A stretch of 64,000 bases of DNA from Escherichia coli (GTDB lineage Bacteria > Pseudomonadota > Gammaproteobacteria > Enterobacterales > Enterobacteriaceae): the NCBI RefSeq assembly GCF_041248615.1, contig NZ_CP158426.1; one strand, written 5' to 3'. Numbering within the stretch: position 1 is the first letter of the stretch; every line of letters starts with the position of its first letter. The notes beneath the pieces were generated by a model. That model ran no database searches. It was given only the letters and a program-made list of their open reading frames with translations, and was not told the origin of the DNA. A program made the position numbers and the translations under genes. Positions 47,718 to 64,000 of this stretch are shown here, piece after piece.

Positions 47718-49286
47718 TTAGCGTGCCGGCTGAGTAGTCGTGGAAGACTGCTCAAAGTGATAGCGACCGGTTTTCAGGCTGCTTGGGCCGAGGCGTGCAA
47801 ACTTGAACATTAAGAACAATTCTGCCACCAGGAACAGGGTATACAGGCCGCAAATCAGCACCATTGAGAAGATGAGATCGCCTGCGGTCAGTGACGAGTT
47901 CGCCACAGCTGTCGGCAGCACTTCACCGATAGCCCACGGTTGGCGGCCATATTCAGCCACGAACCAGCCCGCTTCTACAGCAATCCACGGCAGCGGAATA
48001 CCGTACAGCGCGGCGCGCAGCAGCCATTTTTTCTCGCCAATGCGGTTGCGGATGACACTCCAGAAAGAGAGCGCGATGATTGCCAGCAGCAGGAAGCCAC
48101 ACGCCACCATGATACGGAACGCGAAGTACAGCGGCGCTACACGCGGAATGGAGTCTTTGGTTGCCTGTTGAATCTGCGCTTCAGTCGCATCAGCCACGTT
48201 TGGCGTATAGCGTTTCAGCAGCAGACCGTAACCGAGGTCTTTCTTCATGCTATTGAACTGGTCACGAACCGCCTGGTCGGTAGAACCAGAACGCAGTTGT
48301 TCGAGCAGAGAGTACGCCTTCATCCCGTTACGAATGCGTTCTTCATGCTGCACCATCAGTTCTTTCAGGCCGATAACTGGAGTATCCACGGAACGCGTTG
48401 CAATGATGCCCAGCGCGTAAGGGATCTGGATCGCAAATTTGTTCGTCTCCTCTTCCTGATCAGGAATGCCGAACAGAGTAAAGGCAGCAGGCGCAGGTTG
48501 CGTTTCCCACTCGGCTTCAATAGCAGCCAGTTTGGTTTTCTGCACGTCGCCCATTTCGTAACCAGATTCATCACCCAGAACAATAACAGACAGAACGGCA
48601 GCCATACCGAAGCTGGCAGCGATAGCAAAGGAGCGTTTAGCGAAGGCGAAGTCACGACCTTTCAGCATATACCATGCGCTGATACCGAGGATGAACATCG
48701 CGCCAGTCACATAACCAGACGCTACAGTGTGAACGAATTTCACCTGAGCAACCGGGTTAAGCACCAGCTCGGAGAAGCTCACCATCTCCATACGCATAGT
48801 TTCAAAGTTGAAATCGGACGCGATTGGGTTTTGCATCCAGCCGTTCGCAACCAGAATCCACAGTGCGGACAGGTTTGAACCGAGCGCCACCAGCCAAGTG
48901 ACACACATATGCTGAACTTTACCCAGACGATCCCAACCGAAGAAGAACAGACCTACAAAGGTGGATTCGAGGAAGAAGGCCATTAGACCTTCGATTGCCA
49001 GCGGCGCACCGAAGATATCCCCTACATAGTGGGAATAGTAAGACCAGTTAGTCCCGAACTGGAACTCCATAGTCAGACCGGTAGCCACACCCAGAGCGAA
49101 GTTGATACCAAACAACTTGCCCCAGAACTTGGTCATATCTTTATAAATCTGTTTGCCGGAAAGGACGTAGACCGTTTCCATAATGGCCAGCAGGAACGCC
49201 ATACCGAGCGTCAGTGGCACAAAAAGGAAGTGGTACATCGCGGTCAAGGCAAACTGTAAGCGCGACAGTTCGACTATATCTAACAT
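47718..49286 (-). CDS. cydA: Cytochrome bd-I ubiquinol oxidase subunit I
   Basis: Track ORF 47718..49289 trimmed to [28 protein letters not shown] (522 aa). Confidence 0.95.
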
Positions 49287-49289
49287 CAT

Positions 49290-50091
49290 GACTCCTTGCT
49301 CATCGCATGAAGACTCCGAGAGTGAACCCCGTTAGAAAGGGTCACACGCATGCCCCAATACAAAATTATTTGCTCGCCTCTATCGTTGCCATTTCATCAA
49401 AAGAGGAAAAGACAATGATAAAAAAGTTACAAATATGTTAATGAATAAACCAAATTGATCCCGTAATTATATTACGCCGCAAAATCCTTACAATAAACAG
49501 GTTTTTATTGAGCAAATTTGCATTTTTCGACAGTGATCAATTTATAGCGAAATTGTCACGATCTCACCAATTTGATCTACGACAATTTATCGTGTTTTGC
49601 AGATTTTTTTCAAGAATTAAAAATTGATTTATATCAAAACCAACCAAATATGTTAATTATGTATAAACCATAGATCATTGGTGATTTTATTGTTAATTTA
49701 TTGTGAAATATTTATGCAACACAATTATTACAATGAAAAGGTATAGATAAAAAACCAGTGTTTTATTTAACAGAACCGCCCTATCCACTTTTTATAATAC
49801 CAATTGATTAGATTAGCCAATTTGTTGCTATTTTACATAACATATTTTTATCAAAGTTAATTGATTGTTGCCTTTATGAGCACCGGCCGTAAGCCCGTTA
49901 TGTTATTGTTTCATTAGTAATAATCACTTAAATGTATCGATGAAACAGGTATGACTTAGCGGGAGTGATTGTTTCTGAGTGAACAGAGACCACTTTCGCC
50001 TGATAAATGAAAAATGAGCGATTTTTGCAAGTTAGTTTTTCTATAGCCGAGTACGCTCAGCGCCTCGCTTGATTACAATGAGGTTGCTGCT
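49290..50091. promoter_or_regulatory. cydAB upstream regulatory region (long AT-rich leader/promoter)
   Basis: About 800 bp non-coding, strongly AT-rich, immediately upstream of cydA; by established knowledge cydAB has a long multi-promoter control region. Individual sites not mapped here. Confidence 0.5.
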
Positions 50092-51036
50092 ATGAGTCCT
50101 GATAATATCAGTTCTGCTGTCAATCGCTTCTCAGGTTGGCCATCTAATGATCCTCTAAAAACAGATAAAGAATCAATGACATCACCCATGACTGTGCAGG
50201 TAATAAAGATGATTGCCGCCATCCTTGATCCACATCGGATAGTCGTTGGAATCGATACACTTTATACAACGCAGCGCGAAACATTTACCTCAGAGAGTCA
50301 ACAGCTCATTGAATCAGCATTGCAAACACTTCATGTGATGAATTTAAATAACCTGGAAACAAATCTCGATGAGGAAGGTCACTATCTGGCTTTTGGATAT
50401 AACGTTGACACTCCTGACAGAATAACCGTTTCTGCTTATAATGAAAAAAAGCCTGGCTGCTATGGTCAATGTCTTTTAATACAGGATGACGAAACAGACT
50501 TATTTAACCTGATAAAAGTTAAAATTTTTGAAGCCAGGCATAATTATGTCGCTCAATTGATGAGCGATCCGGAATTTATGTTCAAATTTAGTTATAGCGC
50601 TCAACAAAATAGATTAGAACCTCATCTTCTGGTTCCCACTTATTTCCCTCTAAAAACAAACGAACCGGTTACGCAAGAGGATGTACTGTTACTTTATCGT
50701 TTCTTTAAAATGGATGGTGATTTTAATATATTAACATCAGATGAATACATGAGTATCATGACACCTCTGATGAAGTGTGAGCGCAGCATCCACGACCACA
50801 ACAGGTATGTGACGGGCAAAGATACCCTTCTTCTGGACTATCCTCCTTCTGGTAACCAGATATATTTCCATATTTTTCCTGACGAATCAGCAACACTAGT
50901 CCTTTATTTTTCAAACAATGACATTGAATGTTTCGTCTTTGAAAGAGATATTCCGAGCCAGTATCGCTTTTTCAAAATGTTTACCAATCTGGCACTGGTT
51001 ATTGATCAGTTAACCGATGCCAATCAAATACTTTAA
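50092..51036 (+). CDS. Hypothetical protein (314 aa), AT-rich orphan gene
   Basis: ORF track. Low GC and codon usage unlike flanking core genes; no recognisable motifs. Confidence 0.45.
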   Translation: MSPDNISSAVNRFSGWPSNDPLKTDKESMTSPMTVQVIKMIAAILDPHRIVVGIDTLYTTQRETFTSESQQLIESALQTLHVMNLNNLETNLDEEGHYLAFGYNVDTPDRITVSAYNEKKPGCYGQCLLIQDDETDLFNLIKVKIFEARHNYVAQLMSDPEFMFKFSYSAQQNRLEPHLLVPTYFPLKTNEPVTQEDVLLLYRFFKMDGDFNILTSDEYMSIMTPLMKCERSIHDHNRYVTGKDTLLLDYPPSGNQIYFHIFPDESATLVLYFSNNDIECFVFERDIPSQYRFFKMFTNLALVIDQLTDANQIL

Positions 51037-51116
51037 TTTTTATATATTCCCTGTGGCAAATATTGCCAAACAATGCCCGGGGATTAATTTTTATTACTCA
51101 CGGAAAGATTTAAATA

Positions 51117-51539
51117 ATGATCCCATCTCAAATCTCTTTCAACACCCTTCCTGTCAATGCAACATACGCTTCAGAGACAACAGTTGACACACAAAAATTC
51201 TCTGACATCCTCTACTCAGCGGGGTGTTCCCTAAAGGATCTGGCTTATCTGAGCAGATGTCTGGCATCAATACATCCGACTATCGCCAAAAACATTTATG
51301 AAACAGAAAATCTCAGCGATCAAAAATTACTGCATATTGATTGCCGTAGTACAAATGAAATCAAGATAAATATCTTTTTTGGTCAACAACGAGAAGGATT
51401 AATTGAAATTAATTCTGACACTGTCATTTTTCCGATATTGTCTTCATTAATTGACTCCGCCATTTCTAAATTTCAACACCAAATCCCCGTTAACGGTTCA
51501 GTAAATCCTGACCTATTGTATGAGGATTATACTGATTAA
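51117..51539 (+). CDS. Hypothetical protein (140 aa), AT-rich orphan gene
   Basis: ORF track. Low GC; follows the 314 aa ORF on the same strand. Confidence 0.4.
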   Translation: MIPSQISFNTLPVNATYASETTVDTQKFSDILYSAGCSLKDLAYLSRCLASIHPTIAKNIYETENLSDQKLLHIDCRSTNEIKINIFFGQQREGLIEINSDTVIFPILSSLIDSAISKFQHQIPVNGSVNPDLLYEDYTD

Positions 51540-52085
51540 ATCCACCCAGTCGCGAAAATGGCCTGCGTTATTGCCAGACGTAATAAAACTTTTGATTAAC
51601 GTTACTCGTACTGGTAGCACCTTCATGTACTTTTCTTTTTTACGAAAAATCAAAAGAGCTAACAAAGGTCATAATTCGCATGAATCATTAATTATTTGTT
51701 ATTTTCAACATTATTTTTACATTAAGCAGAGATGAATTGCAGTGAAATTCGACTTAACTTTTATGAAATGCATTTACTCATGGCTAAAGCCACGTCACAA
51801 AAATGCAAATTAGAAGTTGATCACAATTATCTCAATACATCAAATCAAGTTAATTTTAAAAATTTAACATTCATGACATTAGTTGACATAACACACTGAA
51901 TTAAAATGAGAATTTGAAAACACACTTTAAACAATCATTTCCCGAAAGACATTTTGAAAATAGATCAATTGCAACATTACGGTCAGATAAAGACACTCCT
52001 GTGATATTAAACCTGTGCCGTTATGAGCGGCCATAAATACGACGTGTGTAACTTATTTTACTCTCTGTCTTACAAAGGATTACCC

Positions 52086-52535
52086 ATGAAGAAAGCAACA
52101 CTTGTGATTGGCGTTATTGGCGCGGACTGCCATGCAGTAGGCAATAAAGTTCTGGACCGCGTTTTTAGCAACCATGACTTCAGAGTTATTAATCTGGGCG
52201 TAATGGTCAGCCAGGACGAATATATTGATGCTGCCATTGAAACTGGTGCTGACGCGATTGTCGTCTCCTCTATCTATGGGCATGGCGATATCGATTGTCT
52301 GGGCATGCGCGAACGCTGCATCGAGCGTGGGCTGGGTAACATCCTGCTCTATGTGGGCGGTAACCTGGTGGTCGGAAAACATGACTTCGCTGACGTGGAA
52401 ACCAAGTTCAAAGAGATGGGATTTGATCGCGTCTTTTCCCCAAGTCATGACTTAGAAGATGTTTGTCAGCTGATGGCCCACGATATCAACCAACGTCATA
52501 ACGTTGATACTCGCATTCTTGAAGAGGCAATCTGA
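52086..52535 (+). CDS. glmS: Glutamate mutase sigma subunit (methylaspartate mutase S chain, B12-binding)
   Basis: Track ORF 52023..52535 trimmed to [24 protein letters not shown] (149 aa), a cobalamin-binding DxHxxG-type motif (ADCHAVGNK). Confidence 0.8.
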
Positions 52536-53923
52536 TGCAAATCGTCTCTGTCGATATTGGTTCGACGTGGACCAAAGCAGCCCTCTTCGCCCGGGAGGGG
52601 GACGCGTTAACGTTGGTTAACCACGTACTGACCCCAACCACCACCCATCATCTGGCGAAGGGGTTTTTCTCCAGCCTGAACCTGGTGTTAAACGTAGATA
52701 ATGCCCTCCCCCTGTTTAACAGCGGTGAGGTTACATTGAAGTATTCCTCCTCTGCCAAAGGTGGGCTGGCGGTTGCCGCAATGGGATTGGTGCCTTCTAT
52801 CACCCTGGAAACCGCGAAAGTAACCGCTCACTCTGCGGGGGCTAAAATTGCGCAATATTACGCCTACAAGCTGAACCGCCGTGATATCCAGGCACTGGAA
52901 GAAACGCAGCCCGATATTCTCTTGTTCACCGGCGGCACCGACGGCGGAGAAGAAAGCTACGGCCTGAATAACGCCCGTGTGCTGGCAGAATCCAAACTCG
53001 ACTGCGCCATTATTTATGCCGGAAACCGGGATATTCAGGACGAGGTGCAGGAGATCCTAGGGCATAAAGACCTGACCATCGTCGACAACGTTCTGCCCGA
53101 TCTTGACCATCCGAACCCTTTAGCCGCACGCCAGGCTATCTGCGACATATTCCTTAAACGCATCGTTAAAGGGAAAGGGCTGGATGTCGTTGTTGATAAA
53201 ACAGGCGAAGAACCAATGCCGACACCATGGACGGTCTTTGAACTGGTTAAGGCAATCAGTAACGTCGATCACAGCTGGAAAGAGTTCATGCTGATCGACA
53301 TGGGCGGCGCAACCACCGATGTCTATTCCGCCTGTGCCAACACGCTCTCGCCCGACACCGTTTTACACGGCGTACCGGAACCCTTCGTGAAACGGACGGT
53401 GGAAGGCGATCTGGGAATGCGCGTCTCGGCAATGGTGGTTGGTGAAAGTGCGAAAGAGTTAGTCAATGTGAATTTTGCTCAGCAACCCGCACAGCTGGAC
53501 GCTTTTTATCATTACCTCCGTCATCTAGTCGCTCATCCCGACTACTTACCCGCGAATGCAGAAGAAAAATATTTCGATACCGTCCTGGCCGGACTGTGTG
53601 TGGGTTATGCCACCGAAAGACATGCGGGCACCAAAAAAGAGGTCTGCACCTGCGTCGGCAATGTCGATTTACAGATGGGACGTGACCTGACAACCGTGCG
53701 TAAAGTCGTCGGATCCGGCGGATGGCTCTCGCGTGCCAGTCAGTTCGATATGCATCACTGGTTGAAATACCGCGAGTTAAACGACGACGGTAAACGCATT
53801 CTCTTACCGACCGAATTTGAATATTACCGCGATTCCCGGGGGCTATTACCACTGCTGGCAAACGTCGCCAGAGTCGATCCGCTGGCCGCCGCGCGCACCA
53901 GTATTCAATGCTTAACCCTATAA
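52535..53923 (+). CDS. glmL: Glutamate mutase accessory protein (MutL/GlmL-like)
   Basis: 462 aa located between the S and E subunit genes, the arrangement known from Clostridium glutamate mutase operons. Confidence 0.7.
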   Translation: MQIVSVDIGSTWTKAALFAREGDALTLVNHVLTPTTTHHLAKGFFSSLNLVLNVDNALPLFNSGEVTLKYSSSAKGGLAVAAMGLVPSITLETAKVTAHSAGAKIAQYYAYKLNRRDIQALEETQPDILLFTGGTDGGEESYGLNNARVLAESKLDCAIIYAGNRDIQDEVQEILGHKDLTIVDNVLPDLDHPNPLAARQAICDIFLKRIVKGKGLDVVVDKTGEEPMPTPWTVFELVKAISNVDHSWKEFMLIDMGGATTDVYSACANTLSPDTVLHGVPEPFVKRTVEGDLGMRVSAMVVGESAKELVNVNFAQQPAQLDAFYHYLRHLVAHPDYLPANAEEKYFDTVLAGLCVGYATERHAGTKKEVCTCVGNVDLQMGRDLTTVRKVVGSGGWLSRASQFDMHHWLKYRELNDDGKRILLPTEFEYYRDSRGLLPLLANVARVDPLAAARTSIQCLTL

Positions 53924-53941
53924 CAATTAAGGCTGCAATCA

Positions 53942-55387
53942 ATGGAACTTCGAAATAAGAAATTAACCCATGACGAATTCATGACCGAGCGGCAACAGGT
54001 ACTGAAAACCTGGGAAACCGGCAAGGATGTTGAAAACTTTGAAGATGGCGTTAAATACCAACAAACCATTCCTGAGCATAAACGCTTCTCTCTTGCGCTG
54101 TTGAAAGCAGACAAGGAAGGTAAAACCCTTAGCCAACCGCGCGCAGGTGTGGCGCTGATGGACGAACACATCGAACTACTGAAAACACTACAAGAAGAGT
54201 GCGATCTGCTGCCGAGCACTATCGATGCATATACCCGTCTGAATCGGTACGAAGAAGCGGCTGTAGGGATTAAAAAATCCATCGAAGCCGGAACCTCTAA
54301 ACTGAACGGTTTGCCGGTAGTTAACCATGGCGTCGCAGCTTGCCGTCGCCTCACCGAAACCCTGCAAAAACCGCTACAGATCCGCCACGGCACGCCAGAT
54401 GCGCGTCTGCTGGCTGAAATCTCAATGGCCAGCGGCTTTACCAGTTATGAAGGCGGTGGCATTTCCTACAACATTCCGTATGCCAAACGCGTAACGCTGG
54501 AAAAATCGATCCGCGACTGGCAGTACTGCGACCGTTTAATGGGGATGTATGAAGAACACGGGATCCGCATCAACCGCGAACCGTTTGGCCCACTAACGGG
54601 TACGCTGATCCCGCCGTTTATCTCGCACTCTATCGCGATAATCGAAGGCTTGCTGGCGCTGGAACAGGGTGTGAAATCTATCACCGTTGGTTATGGACAG
54701 GTCGGCAGCCTGACGCAGGATGTTGCGGCGATCCAGTCTCTGCGTGAACTTGCACACGAATATTTTCAGAGCTATGGCTATACCGACTATGAATTAAGTA
54801 CCGTGTTTCACCAGTGGATGGGCGGCTTTCCGGAAGACGAATCGAAAGCGTTCGCTATTATCTCCTGGGGCGCAGCCGTCGCGGGGATGTCTGGTGCCAC
54901 CAAAGTCATCACCAAAAGTCCGCACGAAGCCTGGGGCATCCCGACTGCCGCTGCCAACATTCAGGGGCTGAAAGCCTCCCGCCAGATGCTCAACATGGTC
55001 AACGAGCAGAAATTCCCGCCGTGCCCTGCGGTTGAACTGGAAATTGAACTGATTAAGAGCGAGGTTCGCGCGGTACTGAATAAAGTGTTCGAACTGGGTA
55101 ATGGTGATATTGCGCGCGGTACGGTGCTGGCATTTGAAGCGGGCGTACTGGATGTGCCGTTTGCGCCAGCCGCCTGCAACGCGGGCAAAATTCTTCCGGT
55201 CCGTGACAACACCGGCGCGATACGCGTACTGGAAGCCGGAGCCGTTCCATTGCCAAAAGATATTCTCGACCTCCACCACGATTACGTTGCTGAACGCGCA
55301 CGCTTTGAAGGACGCCAACCGACATTCCAGATGGTTGTAGATGACATCAATGCTGTATCCCACAGTAAATTAATAGGAAGACCATAA
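53942..55387 (+). CDS. glmE: Glutamate mutase epsilon subunit (methylaspartate mutase E chain)
   Basis: 481 aa; size and position match GlmE. Confidence 0.8.
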   Translation: MELRNKKLTHDEFMTERQQVLKTWETGKDVENFEDGVKYQQTIPEHKRFSLALLKADKEGKTLSQPRAGVALMDEHIELLKTLQEECDLLPSTIDAYTRLNRYEEAAVGIKKSIEAGTSKLNGLPVVNHGVAACRRLTETLQKPLQIRHGTPDARLLAEISMASGFTSYEGGGISYNIPYAKRVTLEKSIRDWQYCDRLMGMYEEHGIRINREPFGPLTGTLIPPFISHSIAIIEGLLALEQGVKSITVGYGQVGSLTQDVAAIQSLRELAHEYFQSYGYTDYELSTVFHQWMGGFPEDESKAFAIISWGAAVAGMSGATKVITKSPHEAWGIPTAAANIQGLKASRQMLNMVNEQKFPPCPAVELEIELIKSEVRAVLNKVFELGNGDIARGTVLAFEAGVLDVPFAPAACNAGKILPVRDNTGAIRVLEAGAVPLPKDILDLHHDYVAERARFEGRQPTFQMVVDDINAVSHSKLIGRP

Positions 55388-56628
55388 TGAAAATAAAACA
55401 GGCTCTGTTCACCGCTGGCTACTCCTCATTCTATTTCGATGACCAGCAGGCGATAAAAAACGGAGCGGGTCATGACGGCTTTTTTTATACCGGGGAGCCA
55501 GTAACACAGGGGTTTAACGCCGTACGTCAGGCCGGGGAGTGCGTATCGGTACAGTTGATTCTGGAAAACGGCGCGGTCGCCGTAGGTGACTGTGCTGCCG
55601 TACAGTATTCCGGGGCAGGTGGTCGCGATCCACTGTTCCTCGCAGAGCACTTTATTCCGTTCCTCAACGACCATATCAAGCCATTACTGGTAGGCCGCGA
55701 TGTGGATGCTTTCCTGCCGAATGCCCGTTTCTTCGACAAATTGCGTATTGACGGCAACTTGCTACATACCGCCGTGCGCTACGGATTATCACAGGCGCTG
55801 CTTGATGCTACCGCGCTGGCAACCGGCCGTCTGAAAACTGAAGTAGTTTGCGATGAATGGCAGTTGCCACGCGTGGCGGAATCCATTCCATTATTTGGTC
55901 AGAGCGGTGACGATCGATATATCGCCGTCGATAAGATGATCCTTAAGGGCATCGACGTGCTGCCCCATGCACTGATTAATAACGTCGAAGAGAAACTAGG
56001 CTTTAAAGGTGAAAAACTGCGCGAATATGTCCGCTGGCTGTCGGATCGTATTCTGAGCAAGCGCACCAGCGCACGCTACCACCCTACCCTGCACATCGAT
56101 GTATACGGCACTATCGGTCTGATCTTCGATATGGATCCGCTTCGCTGTGCGCAATACATCGCCAGCCTGGAAAAAGAAGCGCAAGGCCTGCCGCTCTACA
56201 TTGAAGGGCCGGTCGATGCCGGTAACAAGCCCGATCAAATTCGCCTGCTGACCGCGATTACCAAAGAGCTGACGCGCCTCGGTTCCGGCGTGAAAATTGT
56301 GGCCGATGAATGGTGTAACACCTACCAGGATATTGTTGATTTTACTGATGCCGCCAGTTGCCACATGGTGCAAATCAAAACCCCGGATCTGGGCAGTATT
56401 CACAACATCGTCGATGCGGTTCTTTACTGCAACAGCCACAGCATGGAAGCGTACCAGGGCGGCACCTGCAATGAAACTGATGTCAGTGCCCGCACCTGTG
56501 TCCACGTCGCCCTTGCCGCTCGCCCTATGCGTATGCTGGTAAAGCCAGGGATGGGCTTTGACGAAGGCCTCGATATCGTCTTCAACGAAATGAATCGTAC
56601 TATCGCGCTGTTGCAGGCTAAGGATTAA
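55387..56628 (+). CDS. 3-methylaspartate ammonia-lyase (enolase superfamily)
   Basis: 413 aa MKIKQALFTAGYSSFYFDDQQAIKNGAGHDGF...; size and N-terminus match methylaspartase as remembered. Start overlaps the glmE stop. Confidence 0.8.
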   Translation: MKIKQALFTAGYSSFYFDDQQAIKNGAGHDGFFYTGEPVTQGFNAVRQAGECVSVQLILENGAVAVGDCAAVQYSGAGGRDPLFLAEHFIPFLNDHIKPLLVGRDVDAFLPNARFFDKLRIDGNLLHTAVRYGLSQALLDATALATGRLKTEVVCDEWQLPRVAESIPLFGQSGDDRYIAVDKMILKGIDVLPHALINNVEEKLGFKGEKLREYVRWLSDRILSKRTSARYHPTLHIDVYGTIGLIFDMDPLRCAQYIASLEKEAQGLPLYIEGPVDAGNKPDQIRLLTAITKELTRLGSGVKIVADEWCNTYQDIVDFTDAASCHMVQIKTPDLGSIHNIVDAVLYCNSHSMEAYQGGTCNETDVSARTCVHVALAARPMRMLVKPGMGFDEGLDIVFNEMNRTIALLQAKD

Positions 56629-56631
56629 CAA

Positions 56632-58002
56632 ATGGCTCGTTCTTTTAAAGTCTTATCGCCAACGGCAATCCTCGGGTATGGATTCCCGGAAGAGAGCTTC
56701 CGTAAAGCGATGGCAGAATCGCCCGATCTGATCGCCGTTGATGCAGGCTCTTCCGATCCTGGCCCCCACTACCTCGGGGCGGGCAAACCGTTTACCGATC
56801 GCGCAGGGGTCAAGCGCGATCTGCGCTATATGATCACCGCAGGCGTGCAAAATAATATACCGGTGGTGATCGGAACGGCTGGCGGTTCTGGTGCCGCACC
56901 ACACCTGGAGTGGTGCCGAGAAATAATTCATGAGATTGCCCAGGAAGAGCACCTCTCGTTCTCAATGGCGCTGATCCCGGCAGACGTTGACAAAGCCATC
57001 GTCCACCAGGCGCTGGATAACGGCAAAATCACGGCGCTGGAGTTTGTCCCGCCGTTAACCCACGACGCGATTGACGAAAGTACGTATATCGTTGCGCAAA
57101 TGGGCATCGAACCCTTCCAGCGGGCGCTGAAAGAAGGCGCGCAAGTGGTGCTGGGCGGGCGCGCTTACGACCCGGCCTGCTTTGCTGCGCTTCCGATCAT
57201 GCAAGGCTTTGATGAAGGTCTGGCGCTGCATTGTGGGAAAATCCTTGAATGCGCGGCAATCGCCGCAACGCCCGGCTCAGGCTCTGACTGTGCGATGGGC
57301 ATCATTGATGACAACGGCTTTACGCTGAAGACATTTAATCCGAAGCGTAAATTTACCGAAACGTCAGCGGCTGCACACACACTGTATGAGAAATCCGATC
57401 CCTACTTCCTGCCTGGACCTGGCGGCGTGTTGAACCTGAAAGGCTGCACATTTAAAGCGGTCAATGACAGCGAAGTGTACGTCAGCGGTTCTAAGCATGA
57501 AGAAACGCCGTATGCCCTGAAACTGGAAGGTGCGCGACGAGTGGGCTTCCGCTGTCTGACCATCGCAGGAACGCGCGACCCGATCATGATCGCCGGGATC
57601 GATAAAATCATCGATGAAGTCAAAACCAGCGTTTCGCGTAACCTGTCGCTCGACGATGACAGCATTCGCATCAATTTCCACCTGTACGGCAAAAACGGGG
57701 TGATGGGAGACCATGAACCGATGCAAACTGCCGGGCATGAGCTGGGGATTGTCCTTGATGTAGTTGCACCGACCCAGGAAATTGCCAACAGCGTTTGCTC
57801 GCTGGTGCGCTCTACCATGCTGCACTACGGCTATGAAAACCGCATCGCTACCGCAGGTAATCTGGCGTTCCCGTTCTCCCCTTCTGATATCCAGGGCGGG
57901 CCGGTATACGAATTTTCCATATATCACCTGATTGAAGCCAACGACGCTCTGCGTTTTGATTTCCATATTGAACAGGTGACGCCAGAAGGAGTTCAGGCAT
58001 GA
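56632..58002 (+). CDS. DUF1446 (AtuA-like) family protein, function unknown
   Basis: 456 aa ORF inside the mesaconate operon; family assignment from memory of AtuA-like sequences, unverified. Confidence 0.45.
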   Translation: MARSFKVLSPTAILGYGFPEESFRKAMAESPDLIAVDAGSSDPGPHYLGAGKPFTDRAGVKRDLRYMITAGVQNNIPVVIGTAGGSGAAPHLEWCREIIHEIAQEEHLSFSMALIPADVDKAIVHQALDNGKITALEFVPPLTHDAIDESTYIVAQMGIEPFQRALKEGAQVVLGGRAYDPACFAALPIMQGFDEGLALHCGKILECAAIAATPGSGSDCAMGIIDDNGFTLKTFNPKRKFTETSAAAHTLYEKSDPYFLPGPGGVLNLKGCTFKAVNDSEVYVSGSKHEETPYALKLEGARRVGFRCLTIAGTRDPIMIAGIDKIIDEVKTSVSRNLSLDDDSIRINFHLYGKNGVMGDHEPMQTAGHELGIVLDVVAPTQEIANSVCSLVRSTMLHYGYENRIATAGNLAFPFSPSDIQGGPVYEFSIYHLIEANDALRFDFHIEQVTPEGVQA

Positions 58003-58316
58003 AACAGTCAATTGTCTCACTGGCGCAAGTCATTCGTTCGAAAAATGCCGGACCTTACGAACTGGTTTTAGATATTTTATTTAAAACCAAAGAAAACTAT
58101 GAGCGTGTCAAATCATCAGGGCAATTAACCCCAGAACTGATCGCGCGCTTATATCATGTTGAACCTGACTTTATTCATCGTATTGTCTGGTTTGATCCTT
58201 CTAACGCAGTAAAAATCGTCATGCCACGAGATATTATCTCCGGGAATGTAGGTGACAATGATGTCTATGGTGCACAGCAACATGCACCTTTATTAAATAT
58301 GAGTTTCGATTTGTAA
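57999..58316 (+). CDS. DUF4387-like small protein, function unknown
   Basis: 105 aa; start overlaps the DUF1446-like stop (ATGA), suggesting translational coupling and a two-protein unit. Confidence 0.4.
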   Translation: MKQSIVSLAQVIRSKNAGPYELVLDILFKTKENYERVKSSGQLTPELIARLYHVEPDFIHRIVWFDPSNAVKIVMPRDIISGNVGDNDVYGAQQHAPLLNMSFDL

Positions 58317-58476
58317 AAATCCGAATACTTTTAGCCAACTGACATCCCGTCACTTATTGCAGTTCAACACTTCAGCTATTTGTAAGGTTGTAATAGCAGG
58401 TAGATGCCTGAATCTCTATTCGGGCATCTACTTCTCCTGATTCTGATTTATCGCCGTGCACCTGATGGAGGAAAAA

Positions 58477-59757
58477 ATGAAGAAAATAAGTTTAACCACG
58501 ATGATTCTTTTGGCGCTGGTACTTGGAATGATTATCGGCGTAGTGCTCAATAACACTGCTTCACCGGAAACCGAAAAACTCTATGCGCAAGAAATATCGA
58601 TATTCACGACGATTTTCTTACGACTGATAAAAATGATTATCGCTCCGTTAGTGGTCTCTACCCTGGTGGTAGGTATAGCTAAAATGGGCGATGCCAAAGC
58701 CCTTGGTCGTATTTTTTCTAAAACACTCTTTTTATTTATTTGCGCCTCATTGCTGTCAATTGCCTTAGGCTTGATAACAGTAAATTTCTTCATGCCAGGC
58801 ACAGGAATTAATTTTGTTGCACACGGAGCCGAAACCACCGGAGTGGTCGCGTCAGAACCCTTTACGCTAAAAGTATTTATTTCGCATGCTTTCCCCACCA
58901 GCATTGTCGATGCCATGGCGCACAATGAAATTTTGCAAATCGTGGTGTTCTCAATTTTCCTCGGCTGTAGCCTGACGGCGATTGGCGAGAAAGGCAGCGC
59001 CATCGTTCACGCCTTAGATTCGCTGGCACATGCCATGTTAAAGCTCACTGGCTACGTCATGCTCTTCGCTCCCCTGACCGTATTCGCTGCTATTTCAGCA
59101 TTGATTGCTGAACGAGGACTGGCAGTTATGGTGAGCGCCGGGATCTTTATGGGTGAATTTTATTTCACCATGTTATTACTTTGGGTGCTGCTTATCGGTC
59201 TGGCCATCGTTTATGTTGGCCCCTGCATCAGACGCCTGACCCGCGCCCTTTCGGAACCCGCCCTGCTGGCATTTACCACATCCAGTTCTGAAGCGGCTTT
59301 TCCGGGAACGCTTGAAAAACTGGAGCAATTTGGCGTTTCCCCCAAAATTGCCAGCTTTGTCTTACCCATTGGCTACTCATTTAATCTTGTTGGATCAATG
59401 GCCTACTGCTCCTTCGCCACAGTTTTCATCGCCCAGGCCTGCAATATCCATTTATCCATCGGTGAGCAAATCACCATGCTGTTGATCCTGATGTTGACCT
59501 CGAAAGGAATGGCTGGCGTACCACGCGCCTCAATGGTGGTTATCGCCGCCACGCTCAACCAGTTCAATATTCCGGAAGCGGGGCTGATCTTGCTGATGGG
59601 CGTTGATCCGTTCCTTGATATGGGGCGTTCCGCGACAAACGTCATGAGCAACGCAATGGGCGCTGCGATGGTGAGTCGGTGGGAAGGCGAACATTTCGGC
59701 GAGGGTTGTCGGGGTAAAGCATTAAAACCCAATGAATCGAACGTTGCTCTGCCCTGA
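58477..59757 (+). CDS. Dicarboxylate/amino acid:cation symporter (GltP/DAACS family), likely glutamate or C4/C5-dicarboxylate uptake
   Basis: Track ORF 58456..59757 trimmed to ATG 58477 with RBS ggagg (426 aa). Polytopic with conserved DAACS-like motifs. Confidence 0.75.
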   Translation: MKKISLTTMILLALVLGMIIGVVLNNTASPETEKLYAQEISIFTTIFLRLIKMIIAPLVVSTLVVGIAKMGDAKALGRIFSKTLFLFICASLLSIALGLITVNFFMPGTGINFVAHGAETTGVVASEPFTLKVFISHAFPTSIVDAMAHNEILQIVVFSIFLGCSLTAIGEKGSAIVHALDSLAHAMLKLTGYVMLFAPLTVFAAISALIAERGLAVMVSAGIFMGEFYFTMLLLWVLLIGLAIVYVGPCIRRLTRALSEPALLAFTTSSSEAAFPGTLEKLEQFGVSPKIASFVLPIGYSFNLVGSMAYCSFATVFIAQACNIHLSIGEQITMLLILMLTSKGMAGVPRASMVVIAATLNQFNIPEAGLILLMGVDPFLDMGRSATNVMSNAMGAAMVSRWEGEHFGEGCRGKALKPNESNVALP

Positions 59758-59864
59758 GGGGGATCTTAAGCAATCAGAAGCCAATGACTACGCATTTTTA
59801 TAAGCCGGATCATGAAGTTAGACGGCAATTAAGTAAAACTAACGTTTAAGGTGAAAAGTGAAAT

Positions 59865-61517
59865 ATGTCCAAACCATTTATCTGGCAAGAACCGTTTCTA
59901 CAAAATAAAGACGGTACAGAATATACATTAATTAGCGATCAACATATTACAGTAACGGAATTAGACGGCGAAGAAGTAATAAAAATCGCTCCTGAAGCAT
60001 TAACGCTGCTTGCCCGGCAGGCATTTTATGAAGCCTCTTTTTTCTTACGTTCCGCTCATTTGCAACAGGTCGCCAGCATTCTTAACGATCCGCAGGCCAG
60101 TAGTAATGATAAATACGTTGCGTTGCAGTTATTACGTAATGCTGAAGTCTCAGCAAAAGGGGTATTACCCAACTGTCAGGATACCGGCACCGCAACTATT
60201 GTTGCCAGTAAAGGGCAACAGATATGGACGGGAGGTAACGACGCTGAAGCCTTAAGCAAAGGCATTTACAGTACTTTCCAGGAAAATAACCTGCGCTTTT
60301 CACAAAATGCGCCGCTGGATATGTACACCGAAGTCAATACGCAAACCAATCTCCCGGGGCAGATTGATATCAGCGCTGTCGCTGGTGATGAGTACCATTT
60401 TCTCTGTATTAATAAAGGGGGCGGCTCTGCCAATAAAGCCGCGCTTTATCAGGAAACCAAATCCTTATTGCAACCAGAAAAACTGACCGCATTTTTAATC
60501 GAAAAAATGAAATCGCTGGGCACCGCTGCCTGCCCGCCTTACCACATCGCCTTTGTCGTCGGAGGGCTTTCAGCCGATCAAACCTTAAAAGTTGCCAAGC
60601 TGGCCTCAACGAAATATTACGACAATTTGCCCACCAGCGGAAACGAGCAAGGACAAGCATTCCGTGATATTGAGCTGGAAAAAGTATTGCTCGAGGCCAG
60701 TCAGCAATTTGGTATTGGTGCGCAATTTGGAGGTAAATATTTCGCTCATGATATTCGCGTCATTCGTCTGCCGCGTCACGGTGGCTCCTGCCCGATAGCT
60801 ATGGCGCTCTCCTGTTCTGCCGATCGCAATATCAAAGCAAAAATTAACAAGCACGGTATCTGGCTGGAAAAACTCGAACACAATCCGGGGCAATATATTC
60901 CAGCCTCACTGCGGGAAGAAAATCACGCGCAACATGTACAACTGGATCTAAACCGTCCGTTGCGTGACGTGATGCAGGATCTCGCCAGATTACCGGTAGG
61001 CACCCGCGTGTCGTTAAGTGGTCCCATCGTAGTGGCACGCGATATCGCCCACGCCAAAATAAAAGCGCGGCTGGATAACGCCGAACCGATGCCGGATTAC
61101 CTGAAGCATCATATTGTCTATTACGCTGGCCCGGCGAAAACACCGGAGAACATGGCCTGCGGTTCACTGGGTCCAACCACGGGCGGTCGAATGGACGGTT
61201 ATGTCGATACCTTCCAGGCGGCTGGCGGCAGTCTGGTGATGTTATCGAAAGGTAACCGCAGCCAGCAGGTCACCGATGCCTGTCACAAACATGGTGGCTT
61301 CAATCTGGGTAGTATTGGCGGTGCAGCTGCGTTACTGGCGCAAGAATATGTCAAAAGTCTGCGTTGCCTGGAATACCCGGAGCTGGGTATGGAAGCGGTG
61401 TGGATGATGGAAGTGGAAAATCTGCCCGCATTCATCCTGGTAGATGATAAAGGCAATAATTTCTTTAGTCAGTTTGAGCAGCAACACCGCTGCGCCAGTT
61501 GCCCTGCGGGACATTAA
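59865..61517 (+). CDS. fumD: Class I fumarate hydratase family enzyme (mesaconase/fumarase FumD-type)
   Basis: 550 aa FumA/FumB-like Fe-S hydratase (C-terminal CxxC-containing region). Its context with glutamate mutase and methylaspartase implies mesaconate hydration. Confidence 0.75.
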
Positions 61518-61526
61518 GGAAAATGA

Positions 61527-62129
61527 ATGGAAGCGCGAATTTCAACTGAACGGCATGTGCAGCGCCAGCAGAAATTGAAGGAACAGGTCGATACGCGCGT
61601 CGCGGCGGCGATAGAGAAAAAAGGGATTTTGATTGTTTTCACCGGCAATGGCAAAGGGAAATCCACTGCCGCGTTTGGTACTGTGACGCGCGCGGTGGGT
61701 CATGGCAAAACGGTGGGGGTTGCGCAGTACATCAAGGGGCAATGGGACAACGGCGAATACAACCTTCTCCAGCCGCTGGGGGTTGAGTTTCATATTATGG
61801 GAACCGGTTTTACCTGGGAGACACAGAACCGGCAAGCGGATATCGACGCGGCGAAAGAGGTCTGGTCGGAAAGCAAACGGATGCTGGCTGACAAGCGTTA
61901 CGACTTAGTGGTGCTTGATGAGCTGACCTATATGCTGGCTTACCATTATCTGGACACCGAAGAAGTGATCGCTTCTCTGCAAAACCGCCCGGCACAACAA
62001 AGTGTCATTGTCACCGGACGCGGTTGCCACAGTCAGATATTAAAAATGGCGGATACGGTCAGCGAAATCCGCCCCGTCAAACATGCTTTTGATAACGGCA
62101 TTCAGGCGCAGCCGGGTATCGACTGGTAA
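61527..62129 (+). CDS. Cob(I)alamin adenosyltransferase (CobA/BtuR-type)
   Basis: 200 aa with P-loop GNGKGKSTAAFG; highly similar to E. coli BtuR from memory. Likely supplies adenosylcobalamin for glutamate mutase. Confidence 0.8.
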   Translation: MEARISTERHVQRQQKLKEQVDTRVAAAIEKKGILIVFTGNGKGKSTAAFGTVTRAVGHGKTVGVAQYIKGQWDNGEYNLLQPLGVEFHIMGTGFTWETQNRQADIDAAKEVWSESKRMLADKRYDLVVLDELTYMLAYHYLDTEEVIASLQNRPAQQSVIVTGRGCHSQILKMADTVSEIRPVKHAFDNGIQAQPGIDW

Positions 62130-62162
62130 TAACTGCGCCTGGCATCCCGCCAGGCGCAGGTT

Positions 62163-63068
62163 TTACATCTCCTGCGGTACGACCGATTTCGCCAGCAACC
62201 ATTCACGAAATTGCTGCAAGTGCGGCGAGTCAGACTTCTCTTCCTGCCACGTCATAATAAAACGATTACCGGTACGAATAGGCACATCACAGGGAATCAC
62301 CATATCGCCACTATCCAAATCATGTTGAATAGCGAACCGTGGTAACAGCGCCACGCCGAGATTAGAGCGCACGGCGGCAATCAGCATTGAAAGCAAATCG
62401 AAACGTGGTCCGTTATTGACCAGCGGACTGCTAACGCCAGATAAAGCAAACCACTCTTCCCAGCCAGTAATACGGGTGCTTTGATGCAGAAGTGGTAACT
62501 CAGTAAGCAGTTCTGCCACTGACAGTTTTTGATCGGACATTGCAAGCAAACTGCCGCTGCATACCGGCAAAATCTCCTCATCAAAGAGATATTCTACTTC
62601 CGCCCAGGGCGCGCAAAAATTTTCGCGCATAATGACAGCATCGTACTCCCGATTAAGAAAATCGCCGTTATTAGCTAAAGAATGAATATTAACAATAATA
62701 TCGGGATGTAACTTTGTGAATTCATGTAAATTTGGGATTAACCAGTGGGTACTAAAAGTAGGATTAACGGCAAGTTCAATAACCTGAACCGTAGGCTGCC
62801 AGGTCATAATGGTATTGGTATCGCGTTCCAGCTTATTTAATGTTTCTTTTACTATCCCCAGGTAATACTTCCCTGCATCATTAAGAAAAATACGTTTTTT
62901 AGAGTGTGAAAATAACGGAGTATGTAAAAATTCCTCCAGCGCACTCACTTGTCTGAATACAGCACTTTGGGTTAACGCTAACTCCTCTGCCGCTCTGGTA
63001 TAACTTTCATGACGTGCGACGACCTCAAAAGTCACCAGCAGCTCCGTTTTAGGTATTTTTCCTCGCAT
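62163..63068 (-). CDS. LysR-family transcriptional regulator
   Basis: 301 aa with N-terminal LysR HTH (ESYTRAAEELALTQSAVFRQVSALE). Convergent with the operon. Confidence 0.8.
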   Translation of the reverse strand: MRGKIPKTELLVTFEVVARHESYTRAAEELALTQSAVFRQVSALEEFLHTPLFSHSKKRIFLNDAGKYYLGIVKETLNKLERDTNTIMTWQPTVQVIELAVNPTFSTHWLIPNLHEFTKLHPDIIVNIHSLANNGDFLNREYDAVIMRENFCAPWAEVEYLFDEEILPVCSGSLLAMSDQKLSVAELLTELPLLHQSTRITGWEEWFALSGVSSPLVNNGPRFDLLSMLIAAVRSNLGVALLPRFAIQHDLDSGDMVIPCDVPIRTGNRFIMTWQEEKSDSPHLQQFREWLLAKSVVPQEM

Positions 63069-63635
63069 AATGCCGTCCCTTAAAAATAGTTTAAACCATC
63101 AAAAATACATTACTTATTACGAAGTAATGGTAACCAAAGCAGCAATAAATAATTTATAAGAATCATGATTGACATTTATAACCCAGTAAGCCTAGCGTGA
63201 CAAATATCTTAATCAGATAATAATAATCCGAAAAGCACAGCGCCTTTCGAATTATCCGGAATCACATTAAGTGAAAATTATTAAATTGATATCATTTATC
63301 ATATCTGTGGATATTATGATAAACAATCAACAAAGATTTTATTTTTGATTTATAGCATATCCCTCTAAGAATTTTTGCGATGCTGCAATATCCGGGTAAA
63401 GACCCGATCCTGGCTGACAAATGGCACGACTTGACGATAAGCGGTGAACATCGCTTTTGTTGATTTACTTAACGCTACGGTCAAACGCTGGGAAGCCAGT
63501 GCATCAGGTAACGATTCGAAATTCGCCGTCGTTCTTATTCGTGGCTTGCGGTCGGTTGCGGCAATCCACAGTGGCTGTGGTCATGCAGTCAAGCCAGCGG
63601 TCAGATTTCGACCGTGGTTAACATTTAAGGCATAA

Positions 63636-63661
63636 AAAAGGCCATCATACGATGGCCAACC
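63636..63661 (-). terminator. Intrinsic terminator downstream of sucD
   Basis: Hairpin ggccatcgtatgatggcc followed by tttttt on the minus strand. Confidence 0.45.
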
Positions 63662-63732
63662 ATGTCGAAACCGACAGCCCTTCGCCATTCCTGTAGAGGG
63701 AAGCGGCGAGGGCTATTTCTTATTACAGATAT

Positions 63733-64000
63733 TTATTTCAGAACAGTTTTCAGTGCTTCACCGATATCCGCCAGGCTGCGAACGGTTTTCACGCCTGCGG
63801 CTTCCAGAGCAGCGAATTTCTCATCCGCAGTCCCTTTTCCACCGGCAATGATCGCACCCGCGTGGCCCATACGTTTGCCTTTCGGCGCAGTCACACCAGC
63901 GATGTAACCCACAACAGGCTTGGTAACGTGCTCTTTGATGTACGCAGCCGCTTCTTCTTCAGCGCTACCGCCGATCTCACCGATCATCACGATCGCTTCG
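63733..64000 (-). CDS. sucD: Succinyl-CoA synthetase alpha subunit, 3' part (partial; continues beyond window end)
   Basis: C-terminal 85 aa ...[44 protein letters not shown] matches the SucD C-terminus from memory. Confidence 0.85.

What the first reader, a model, noticed from the sequence alone, without database searches (positions are those of the whole stretch)
56632..58316. Translationally coupled DUF1446/DUF4387-like pair of unknown function inside the mesaconate operon
A 456 aa and a 105 aa protein with an overlapping stop/start lie between the methylaspartase and transporter genes. This family pair (AtuA-like plus small partner) has no established biochemical function as far as I know. 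The operon otherwise encodes consecutive steps of glutamate to methylaspartate to mesaconate to citramalate, so the pair is a candidate for a missing or auxiliary activity such as citramalate or citramalyl-CoA handling, mutase reactivation or isomerisation.
Basis: inference. Interest (0 to 1): 0.7.

Follow-up and report, generated by a model that had tools for sequence, protein, structure and literature searches.

The report
Two-subunit citramalate lyase CmlAB of E. coli
The two overlapping genes encode the E. coli version of a recently solved two-subunit citramalate lyase that performs the last, long-missing step of glutamate breakdown through methylaspartate, so the finding is real but its function is already known.

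Summary
ORFs 56632-58002 (456 aa) and 57999-58316 (105 aa) overlap by ATGA and match Pfam AtuA/DUF1446 and DUF4387. They lie between the methylaspartase gene and a GltP/DctA-type transporter gene in an E. coli accessory operon.

The function is no longer unknown. The proteins are 92.1% and 84.6% identical, without gaps, to chains A and B of PDB 9ERQ and 9EVF. The depositors named these "citramalate lyase subunit A (cmlA) / B (cmlB)". They were crystallised with AMPPNP plus citramalate and with ADP plus pyruvate, and released in October 2025. A 2026 preprint shows that the Raoultella planticola cmlAB genes are needed in vivo to turn mesaconate into pyruvate and acetate/acetyl-CoA.

In 80 species from at least seven phyla or classes, cmlA-cmlB follows mal in 77 loci. 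No CitDEF-type lyase is conserved in the 34 non-enteric loci I clustered. The fold has no close relative among solved structures.

The claim of "no established function" is out of date. RefSeq, Pfam and NCBIfam still do not name the function.

My inference from the ligands is ATP-dependent activation of the carboxylate, probably yielding acetyl phosphate. This is not shown. Novelty: already known. Interest: modest.

The parts
56632..58002 (+). cmlA: large subunit of citramalate lyase (456 aa; Pfam AtuA/DUF1446)
57999..58316 (+). cmlB: small subunit of citramalate lyase (105 aa; Pfam DUF4387)
   Evidence: ORF. Pfam DUF4387, E 2.9e-39. 88/104 = 84.6% identity to PDB 9erq/9evf chain B, 'Citramalate lyase, subunit B (cmlB)'. 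In more distant family members the DUF4387 domain is fused to the C-terminus of AtuA-like proteins.
57999..58002 (+). ATGA stop/start overlap of cmlA and cmlB (translational coupling)
   Evidence: Read from the sequence. The same 4-nt overlap occurs in 59 of 78 loci scored; the others have spacers of 2-300 nt.
57985..57991 (+). Shine-Dalgarno-like GAAGGAG for cmlB, inside the end of cmlA
   Evidence: Read from the sequence; 7 nt before the ATG. Functional status is inferred.
56620..56624 (+). Shine-Dalgarno-like AAGGA for cmlA, inside the end of mal
   Evidence: Read from the sequence; 7 nt before the ATG at 56632. Functional status is inferred.
52086..52535 (+). glmS: glutamate (methylaspartate) mutase subunit S (context, pathway step 1)
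   Evidence: NF002612, E 1.3e-75. Start taken from the RefSeq annotation of the identical locus.
52535..53923 (+). glmL: mutase accessory/reactivating protein (context)
   Evidence: TIGR01319, E 3.4e-267; NF040745, E 1.3e-152.
53942..55387 (+). glmE: glutamate mutase subunit E (context, step 1)
   Evidence: TIGR01503, E 1.1e-260.
55387..56628 (+). mal: 3-methylaspartate ammonia-lyase (context, step 2)
   Evidence: TIGR01502, E 2.4e-163.
58477..59757 (+). dicarboxylate/amino acid:cation symporter, GltP/DctA family (context, uptake)
   Evidence: NF002461 and NF008440, below their curated cut-offs. Start taken from RefSeq.
59865..61517 (+). fumD: class I fumarase/mesaconase (context, step 3: mesaconate to (S)-citramalate)
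   Evidence: NF011921, 1281 bits, above its cut-off. FumD of E. coli O157:H7 was shown to be a mesaconase in PMC4682846.
61527..62129 (+). cobA/cobO: corrinoid adenosyltransferase (context, B12 cofactor supply for the mutase)
   Evidence: NF004637, E 1.6e-88.
62133..62159 (+). Terminator-like hairpin at the end of the operon (11 bp stem, 9 G-C pairs, T-rich tail)
   Evidence: This is a consensus match only.
62163..63068 (-). LysR-family regulator, convergent with the operon (context)
   Evidence: GcvA-like NF008352, E 1.1e-65, below its cut-off. Conserved next to the operon in 37 loci.

Best explanation
The pair encodes the E. coli orthologue of the heteromeric citramalate lyase CmlAB. CmlA is the large subunit and CmlB the small DUF4387 subunit. 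The enzyme catalyses the last step of the methylaspartate (mesaconate) pathway encoded by this operon. GlmSE converts glutamate to methylaspartate, with GlmL and CobA in support. Mal converts methylaspartate to mesaconate. FumD converts mesaconate to (S)-citramalate. CmlAB converts (S)-citramalate to pyruvate plus a C2 unit.

CmlAB replaces the unrelated acyl-carrier-protein-dependent CitDEF-type citramalate lyase of clostridia.

What is shown: orthology, the depositors' naming of the 9ERQ/9EVF chains, the in vivo requirement for the R. planticola genes, and the gene context.

What I infer: the crystallised enzyme holds AMPPNP with citramalate and ADP with pyruvate. I therefore think ATP phosphorylates the C4 carboxylate. 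The resulting acyl phosphate would make C-C cleavage chemically feasible, as the thioester does in the classical enzyme, and would release pyruvate plus acetyl phosphate. Acetyl phosphate would then go to acetate plus ATP through acetate kinase, or to acetyl-CoA through Pta. Alternatively, the same enzyme could recycle the phosphoryl group so that ATP acts catalytically.
For: (1) Identity to PDB 9erq/9evf, named 'Citramalate lyase, subunit A (cmlA)/B (cmlB)', is 92.1% for chain A and 84.6% for chain B, without gaps.
(2) The entry titles are 'Citramalate lyase - AMPPNP - citramalate complex' and 'Citramalate lyase - ADP - pyruvate complex'. They describe one complex with substrate and ATP analogue and one with product and ADP.
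[quoted passage not shown] Growth of an acetyl-CoA auxotroph on mesaconate depends on the plasmid, and 13C labelling confirms that mesaconate carbon reaches acetyl-CoA.
(4) The order glmS-glmL-glmE-mal-cmlA-cmlB is conserved in Enterobacterales, Betaproteobacteria, Riflebacteria, Spirochaetes, Lentisphaerae, Myxococcota and Erysipelotrichia. Of 80 species loci, 77 have mal, 77 have cmlB and 49 have a class I fumarase. In a Holophagaceae locus without glm/mal, cmlAB is still followed by a two-subunit fumarase-type hydratase.
(5) No CitDEF-like cluster is conserved among the neighbours in the 34 non-enteric loci clustered.
(6) In E. coli the pair and the 10-kb operon travel together: 1,121 versus 1,117 genomes.
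(7) Kronen & Berg 2015 found that citrate lyase, isocitrate lyase and methylisocitrate lyase do not cleave citramalate in E. coli O157 and left the step open.
Against: Neither the E. coli proteins nor any orthologue was assayed here. I found no primary paper on CmlAB in the library, so the function rests on the depositors' names, the ligand lists and one preprint that used the genes as a tool.

That preprint writes the products as pyruvate and acetate and never mentions ATP or acetyl phosphate. The nucleotide could therefore be a regulator or a catalytic cofactor rather than a co-substrate.

Kronen & Berg could not find conditions in which E. coli O157 expresses the operon, and they detected no citramalate lyase activity. 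However, their assay contained no ATP, and the cells were grown on citrate, acetate or propionate.

The similarity to the amino-acid-kinase fold lies in the range that many alpha/beta domains reach by chance.
Confidence: 0.9

Rival explanations
1. CmlAB is a citramalate lyase, but the nucleotide is only an allosteric or structural ligand. The chemistry would be a direct, metal-assisted retro-aldol-type cleavage to pyruvate and free acetate, comparable to isocitrate lyase, with no phosphorylated intermediate.
For: The preprint describes the reaction as direct cleavage to pyruvate and acetate. It attributes failure at 20 mM acetate to thermodynamics, and it never mentions ATP.
Against: The two crystal complexes pair an ATP analogue with the substrate and ADP with the product, which is the pattern of a co-substrate. 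The alpha-carbanion of a free carboxylate is chemically unfavourable; this is established chemistry and the reason classical citrate and citramalate lyases work on thioesters. The invariant glycine-rich loops and the weak resemblance to acyl-phosphate-forming kinases also argue against it.
Confidence: 0.3
2. The pair is an auxiliary factor of the pathway rather than the lyase. It could be a mutase or methylaspartase helper, an isomerase, or a protein that handles citramalyl-CoA.
For: There is only the tight linkage to mal and glm. RefSeq and older records sometimes mislabel the large protein as '3-methylaspartate ammonia-lyase'.
Against: The orthologue alone, expressed in E. coli K-12 with no glm or mal genes, confers mesaconate-dependent acetyl-CoA formation. 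The crystal ligands are citramalate and pyruvate. GlmL already supplies mutase reactivation. cmlAB also occurs with a mesaconase-type hydratase but without glm or mal (L081). No CoA-transferase or CoA-ligase is conserved nearby.
Confidence: 0.04
3. In E. coli the pair is a silent or decaying remnant of a horizontally acquired island and has no current function.
For: Kronen & Berg could not induce the operon in E. coli O157 under any condition tried. The operon is accessory, present in about 21% of complete genomes. It is flanked by AT-rich DNA with a GC fraction of 0.34-0.39.
Against: Both ORFs are full length. They are gapless against the crystallised orthologue and retain every one of the 171 family-invariant residues. 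The whole operon is 95-100% conserved in 1,117 genomes, with Shine-Dalgarno-like motifs 7 nt upstream of both start codons. This is the pattern of purifying selection.
Confidence: 0.05

Closest known systems
CmlAB citramalate lyase of Raoultella planticola (PDB 9ERQ, 9EVF; used in bioRxiv 10.64898/2026.01.16.699985)
   Different: Different species. The E. coli proteins themselves have not been assayed, and expression of the operon in E. coli has not been observed.
[quoted passage not shown]
   Same: Same Pfam family (PF07287). The reaction type assigned in the literature is the same: an acetate unit is cut from a tertiary carbinol, leaving a ketone (PMC4847356). Fused family members of 530-735 aa carry the AtuA-like and DUF4387 domains in one chain; the 615-aa Thauera AtuA has a length consistent with such a fusion, but I did not check it.
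   Different: The fused family members I compared are only 29-46% identical to CmlA. The substrate is a CoA ester of a C12 acid, not a free C5 diacid. The CmlA-specific P214-G-S-G-S-D loop is not conserved in three fused paralogues aligned. AtuA activity has never been shown biochemically as far as the papers I read say.
Classical citramalate lyase EC 4.1.3.22 of Clostridium tetanomorphum (CitDEF-like complex with an acetylated acyl carrier protein)
   Same: Same net reaction and same position in the methylaspartate pathway. In both, the carboxylate must be activated before C-C cleavage (PMC4682846; established biochemistry).
Amino-acid-kinase-fold carboxylate kinases (N-acetylglutamate kinase, aspartokinase, carbamate kinase)
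   Same: These are the best non-self structural neighbours of the CmlA N-domain. They use ATP to turn a carboxylate into an acyl phosphate, which is the activation step I propose.
ATP-citrate lyase
   Same: An ATP-dependent lyase that removes a C2 unit from a tertiary hydroxy acid through a phosphorylated intermediate (established biochemistry).
   Different: It needs CoA and a phosphohistidine, belongs to the succinyl-CoA synthetase and citrate synthase folds, and is unrelated in sequence and structure.

Membership tests
CmlAB citramalate lyase (orthologous group of PDB 9ERQ/9EVF) | Large subunit is full-length orthologous to crystallised CmlA | tested here: met
CmlAB citramalate lyase (orthologous group of PDB 9ERQ/9EVF) | Small DUF4387 subunit is encoded immediately downstream and is orthologous to CmlB | tested here: met
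   88/104 identical, E 5.2e-57. ATGA overlap.
CmlAB citramalate lyase (orthologous group of PDB 9ERQ/9EVF) | Genomic association with enzymes that produce (S)-citramalate (methylaspartase, mesaconase) | tested here: met
   mal is directly upstream and FumD mesaconase is two genes downstream in the window. mal is upstream in 77 of 80 species loci.
CmlAB citramalate lyase (orthologous group of PDB 9ERQ/9EVF) | Residues that bind citramalate/pyruvate and the nucleotide are conserved | tested here: inconclusive
   All 171 invariant alignment columns are identical between the window protein and the crystallised protein. However, the coordinates and ligand contacts of 9ERQ/9EVF cannot be read with these tools.
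CmlAB citramalate lyase (orthologous group of PDB 9ERQ/9EVF) | Catalyses cleavage of (S)-citramalate to pyruvate plus a C2 product | not testable with these tools
   This needs an enzyme assay. There is only indirect support from the orthologue.
Pfam AtuA (PF07287, formerly DUF1446) plus DUF4387 (PF14330) | Significant match to the family profile HMMs | tested here: met
   AtuA E 5e-19, residues 63-393. DUF4387 E 2.9e-39, residues 6-101.
Classical CitDEF-type citramalate/citrate lyase (EC 4.1.3.22 / 4.1.3.6) | Homology to the CitE (HpcH/HpaI), CitF (CoA-transferase-like) and CitD (ACP) subunits | tested here: not met
Amino-acid-kinase fold (acyl-phosphate-forming kinases) | Shared fold of the nucleotide- and carboxylate-binding domain | tested here: inconclusive

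The most novel reading that the evidence does not exclude
CmlAB may be the first understood member of a large and structurally unprecedented AtuA/DUF4387 superfamily of nucleotide-dependent lyases that remove acetate units. In this reading the enzymes activate a free carboxymethyl group as an acyl phosphate instead of a thioester and release acetyl phosphate. Three things would follow. The enterobacterial methylaspartate pathway would conserve the activation energy through acetate kinase. AtuA proper and the fungal AtuA-DUF4387 fusions (one carries about 500 further C-terminal residues, P0355) would use the same chemistry on other tertiary hydroxy acids. The unannotated P-loop protein that follows cmlB in 26 of 34 non-enteric loci would be a dedicated accessory NTPase of the enzyme.
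Probability: 0.35. Interest if true: 0.6.

Novelty: already known. Interest (0 to 1): 0.33.

Why it matters
Which enzyme cleaves citramalate in enterobacteria carrying the glutamate mutase island was an explicit open question in 2015; that study reported the island in 90.6% of E. coli O157:H7 strains, and I find it in about a fifth of complete E. coli genomes. The CmlAB structures and their use in a preprint close that gap, and this window holds a clear orthologue.

The practical value of the finding is in annotation. RefSeq still labels the genes 'AtuA family protein' and 'DUF4387 domain-containing protein'. NCBIfam has no model for either protein, and older records call the large subunit a methylaspartase. 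Transferring the name would complete a pathway from glutamate to pyruvate plus acetate in thousands of gut enterobacterial genomes.

The enzyme also gives synthetic biology a route from mesaconate or citramalate to central metabolism that needs neither CoA nor an acyl carrier protein. It offers as well a testable hypothesis for the many uncharacterised AtuA/DUF4387 proteins of bacteria and fungi.

Tried and rejected
- NCBIfam has no model for either protein.
- The primary CmlAB paper did not turn up in eight full-text searches: citramalate lyase/DUF1446, CmlA/CmlB, Raoultella, AtuA/DUF4387/citramalate, the PDB codes, methylaspartate pathway, acetyl phosphate/ATP-dependent, and the Pfam accessions. 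The only hits were the 2015 Kronen & Berg paper and the 2026 preprint that used the genes.
- Rfam at gathering thresholds found nothing in 49000-64000, so there is no recognisable cobalamin riboswitch ahead of glmS.
- The promoter scan found fewer sites than the shuffled controls, and the terminator scan was at chance level apart from the strong hairpin after cobA.
- Mutase reactivation was rejected because GlmL is present.
- Citramalyl-CoA handling was rejected because no CoA-transferase, CoA-ligase or CitE-like neighbour is conserved and the crystal ligand is free citramalate.
- PADLOC and NCBIfam gave nothing for the two AT-rich ORFs upstream of glmS.
- The conserved P-loop neighbour seen in other phyla has no counterpart in this window.

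Full report
**Observation**

One runs 56632-58002 (+, 456 aa) and the other 57999-58316 (+, 105 aa). The start of the second overlaps the stop of the first by four bases, ATGA. A GAAGGAG motif lies 7 nt upstream of the second start. The first ORF begins 3 nt after the stop of the methylaspartase gene and is preceded by AAGGA.

Pfam assigns the large protein to AtuA (PF07287, formerly DUF1446; E 5e-19) and the small one to DUF4387 (PF14330; E 2.9e-39). NCBIfam has no model for either protein. It does confirm every neighbour:
- GlmS, GlmL and GlmE (glutamate mutase and its accessory protein)
- methylaspartate ammonia-lyase
- a GltP/DctA-type symporter
- a class I fumarase of the FumD type
- a corrinoid adenosyltransferase
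- a convergent LysR regulator

**Origin of the window**

The window is E. coli chromosome. The pair is 100% identical to several complete genomes, and it is present in 1,125 of 5,426 complete genomes. The whole 10.1-kb operon is present at 80% coverage or more in 1,117 genomes, so the pair and the operon travel together. In the annotated twin locus the island lies between cydA and sucD. RefSeq calls the two genes 'acyclic terpene utilization AtuA family protein' and 'DUF4387 domain-containing protein'.

**What the pair is**

A sequence search of the PDB settles the identity. The large protein matches chain A of 9ERQ/9EVF over all 456 residues (E 8.8e-292; 420/456 = 92.1% identical, no gaps). 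The small protein matches chain B (E 5.2e-57; 88/104 = 84.6%). The depositors name these chains 'Citramalate lyase, subunit A (cmlA)' and 'subunit B (cmlB)'.

[quoted passage not shown] In that work an evolved acetyl-CoA-auxotrophic E. coli grows on mesaconate only while it carries the cmlAB plasmid. 13C labelling shows mesaconate carbon entering acetyl-CoA.

This answers a question the same laboratory had left open in 2015. That paper drew the DUF1446 gene downstream of mal as a protein of unknown function. It found that citrate lyase, isocitrate lyase and methylisocitrate lyase do not cleave citramalate in E. coli O157:H7, and it concluded that the fate of citramalate was unclear.

**Independent genomic test**

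A scan of one genome per species with a CmlA profile returned 80 loci with 60-99% identity. They come from Enterobacterales, Betaproteobacteria, Riflebacteria, Spirochaetes, Lentisphaerae, Myxococcota, Erysipelotrichia and others.

tblastn with the operon proteins gave these counts among the 80 scanned loci (the 81-locus totals printed there include L001, the E. coli twin of the window):
- mal directly upstream of cmlA: 77
- cmlB downstream: 77 (the other three loci are cut by contig ends)
- glmE: 72
- a class I fumarase within 10 kb: 49

Of the three loci without mal, one is truncated. One is an Accumulibacter locus where cmlAB stands alone. One is a Holophagaceae locus where cmlAB is followed by a two-subunit fumarase-type hydratase, that is, a mesaconase-like enzyme without the glutamate branch.

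A Rifleibacterium locus reads GntR-glmS-mutL-glmE-mal-AtuA-DUF4387-unknown-fumarase. Clustering all neighbours in the 34 non-enteric loci gives no conserved CitD/E/F-like, CoA-transferase, AckA or Pta gene. CmlAB therefore occupies the slot that the CitDEF-type citramalate lyase fills in clostridial clusters. This is a non-orthologous replacement.

**The two subunits**

The ATGA overlap is present in 59 of 78 scored loci. In the others the spacer is 2-300 nt, so adjacency is universal and overlap is mainly an enterobacterial trait.

In a search of 1.84 billion representative proteins, DUF4387 also occurs as the C-terminal domain of AtuA-like proteins of 530-735 aa that are 29-46% identical to CmlA. 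This is a classical fusion argument that the two polypeptides work as one enzyme. It agrees with their co-crystallisation.

**Fold and mechanism**

Three lines of evidence point the same way:
- One crystal pairs an ATP analogue with the substrate, and the other pairs ADP with the product.
- Family-wide invariant glycine-rich loops are present (D37-x-G-S-x-D-P-G-P, G84-G-x-G, H200-x-G-K-I-L-E-C). Two of them are the lowest-confidence, presumably mobile, segments of the model.
- The classical lyases must first convert the carboxylate into a thioester before C-C cleavage. This is established biochemistry.

From these I infer that CmlAB phosphorylates the C4 carboxylate of citramalate and cleaves citramalyl phosphate to pyruvate and acetyl phosphate. 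This step is inference, not a shown result.

The preprint writes acetate as the product and never mentions ATP. That is compatible with acetate kinase acting downstream, with ATP acting catalytically, or with the nucleotide being only a regulator. I put the phosphorylation mechanism at about 0.5 and the identity as citramalate lyase at about 0.9. One detail fits an ATP requirement: the citramalate lyase assay that gave no activity in 2015 contained no ATP.

**Comparison with known families**

*Orthologous group of R. planticola CmlAB.* The window pair is a member by every test I could run: full-length identity, partner subunit, context and invariant residues. Catalysis and ligand contacts could not be tested.

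*Pfam families AtuA and DUF4387.* The pair is a member of both.

*CitDEF-type citramalate lyases.* The pair is not a member, although the net reaction is the same.

[quoted passage not shown] That reaction also removes an acetate unit from a tertiary carbinol, so the CmlAB result makes the old assignment more plausible. The P214-G-S-G-S-D loop is invariant in CmlA orthologues but replaced in three fused paralogues I aligned. It is a candidate specificity determinant.

**Verdict**

The claim of unknown function is out of date, so the finding is 'already known'. A caveat is that the knowledge sits in two PDB entries and a preprint that used the genes, and has not reached RefSeq, Pfam or NCBIfam.

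What remains open:
- the role of the nucleotide
- the nature of the C2 product
- the conditions under which E. coli expresses the operon
- the function of the wider AtuA/DUF4387 family
- the function of a conserved P-loop neighbour in other phyla

Interest is modest, at 0.33.

Noticed in passing
L084:11712-12665 (Rifleibacterium); also L081:11367-12338, L055, L046-L049, L053, L058-L080: An unannotated protein of about 317 aa with a Walker A motif (G-x-E-G-S-G-K-S-T) lies directly downstream of cmlB in 26 of 34 non-enterobacterial loci. It has no Pfam family, no NCBIfam model, and only P-loop-level PDB matches. It has no counterpart in the E. coli window. It may be an accessory NTPase of the lyase.
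   Followed up: partly
L081:9633-13764 (Holophagaceae MAG) and L082:10001-11679 (Accumulibacter MAG): cmlAB occurs without glutamate mutase or methylaspartase. In L081 it is followed by the P-loop gene and a two-subunit fumarase-type hydratase, which looks like a mesaconate-only module. In L082 it stands alone between a GH77 gene and rpoC.
   Followed up: partly
proteins P0346, P0349, P0377, P0388, P0345, P0355, P0247, P0294: DUF4387 is fused to the C-terminus of AtuA-like proteins 29-46% identical to CmlA. P0355 (1096 aa) carries about 500 further C-terminal residues, which by eye resemble a family III CoA-transferase (not tested). In P0247 and P0294, DUF4387 is fused to an unrelated domain of about 230-250 aa.
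   Followed up: partly
window 58399-58432: A perfect 15-bp hairpin with a 4-nt loop lies in the 160-nt spacer between cmlB and the transporter gene and is followed by a U-rich stretch. The spacer folds better than shuffled controls (z -2.75). It may be a partial terminator or an mRNA-stabilising element that splits the operon into two expression units.
   Followed up: partly
window 49300-52000 (ORFs 50092-51036 and 51117-51539, + strand): An AT-rich segment (GC fraction 0.34-0.39, against about 0.52 in the flanks) lies between cydA and glmS. Its two ORFs (314 and 140 aa) are annotated as hypothetical in RefSeq and have no NCBIfam or PADLOC match. It is probably the edge of the horizontally acquired island.
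   Followed up: partly
window 57500-60500: The GC fraction falls from 0.55 in cmlA to 0.42-0.48 across cmlB, the transporter gene and the first half of fumD. This suggests that the two halves of the operon have different histories.
   Followed up: no
window 49000-52100: No cobalamin riboswitch or other Rfam family reaches its gathering score upstream of the B12-dependent mutase genes. Regulation is presumably left to the convergent LysR gene (62163-63068).
   Followed up: partly
NZ_OY754377.1 (hit H11): In one E. coli genome an IS200/IS605 transposase is inserted within the cmlA-cmlB stretch, splitting the match into two pieces. This is a natural disruption of the lyase genes.
   Followed up: no
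L003 (contig JAIJJM010000101.1, labelled MAG: Collinsella sp.): A 7.3-kb contig binned as the actinobacterium Collinsella carries mal, cmlAB, the transporter gene and fumD at 99-100% protein identity to E. coli. This is almost certainly a binning contaminant rather than gene transfer.
   Followed up: no
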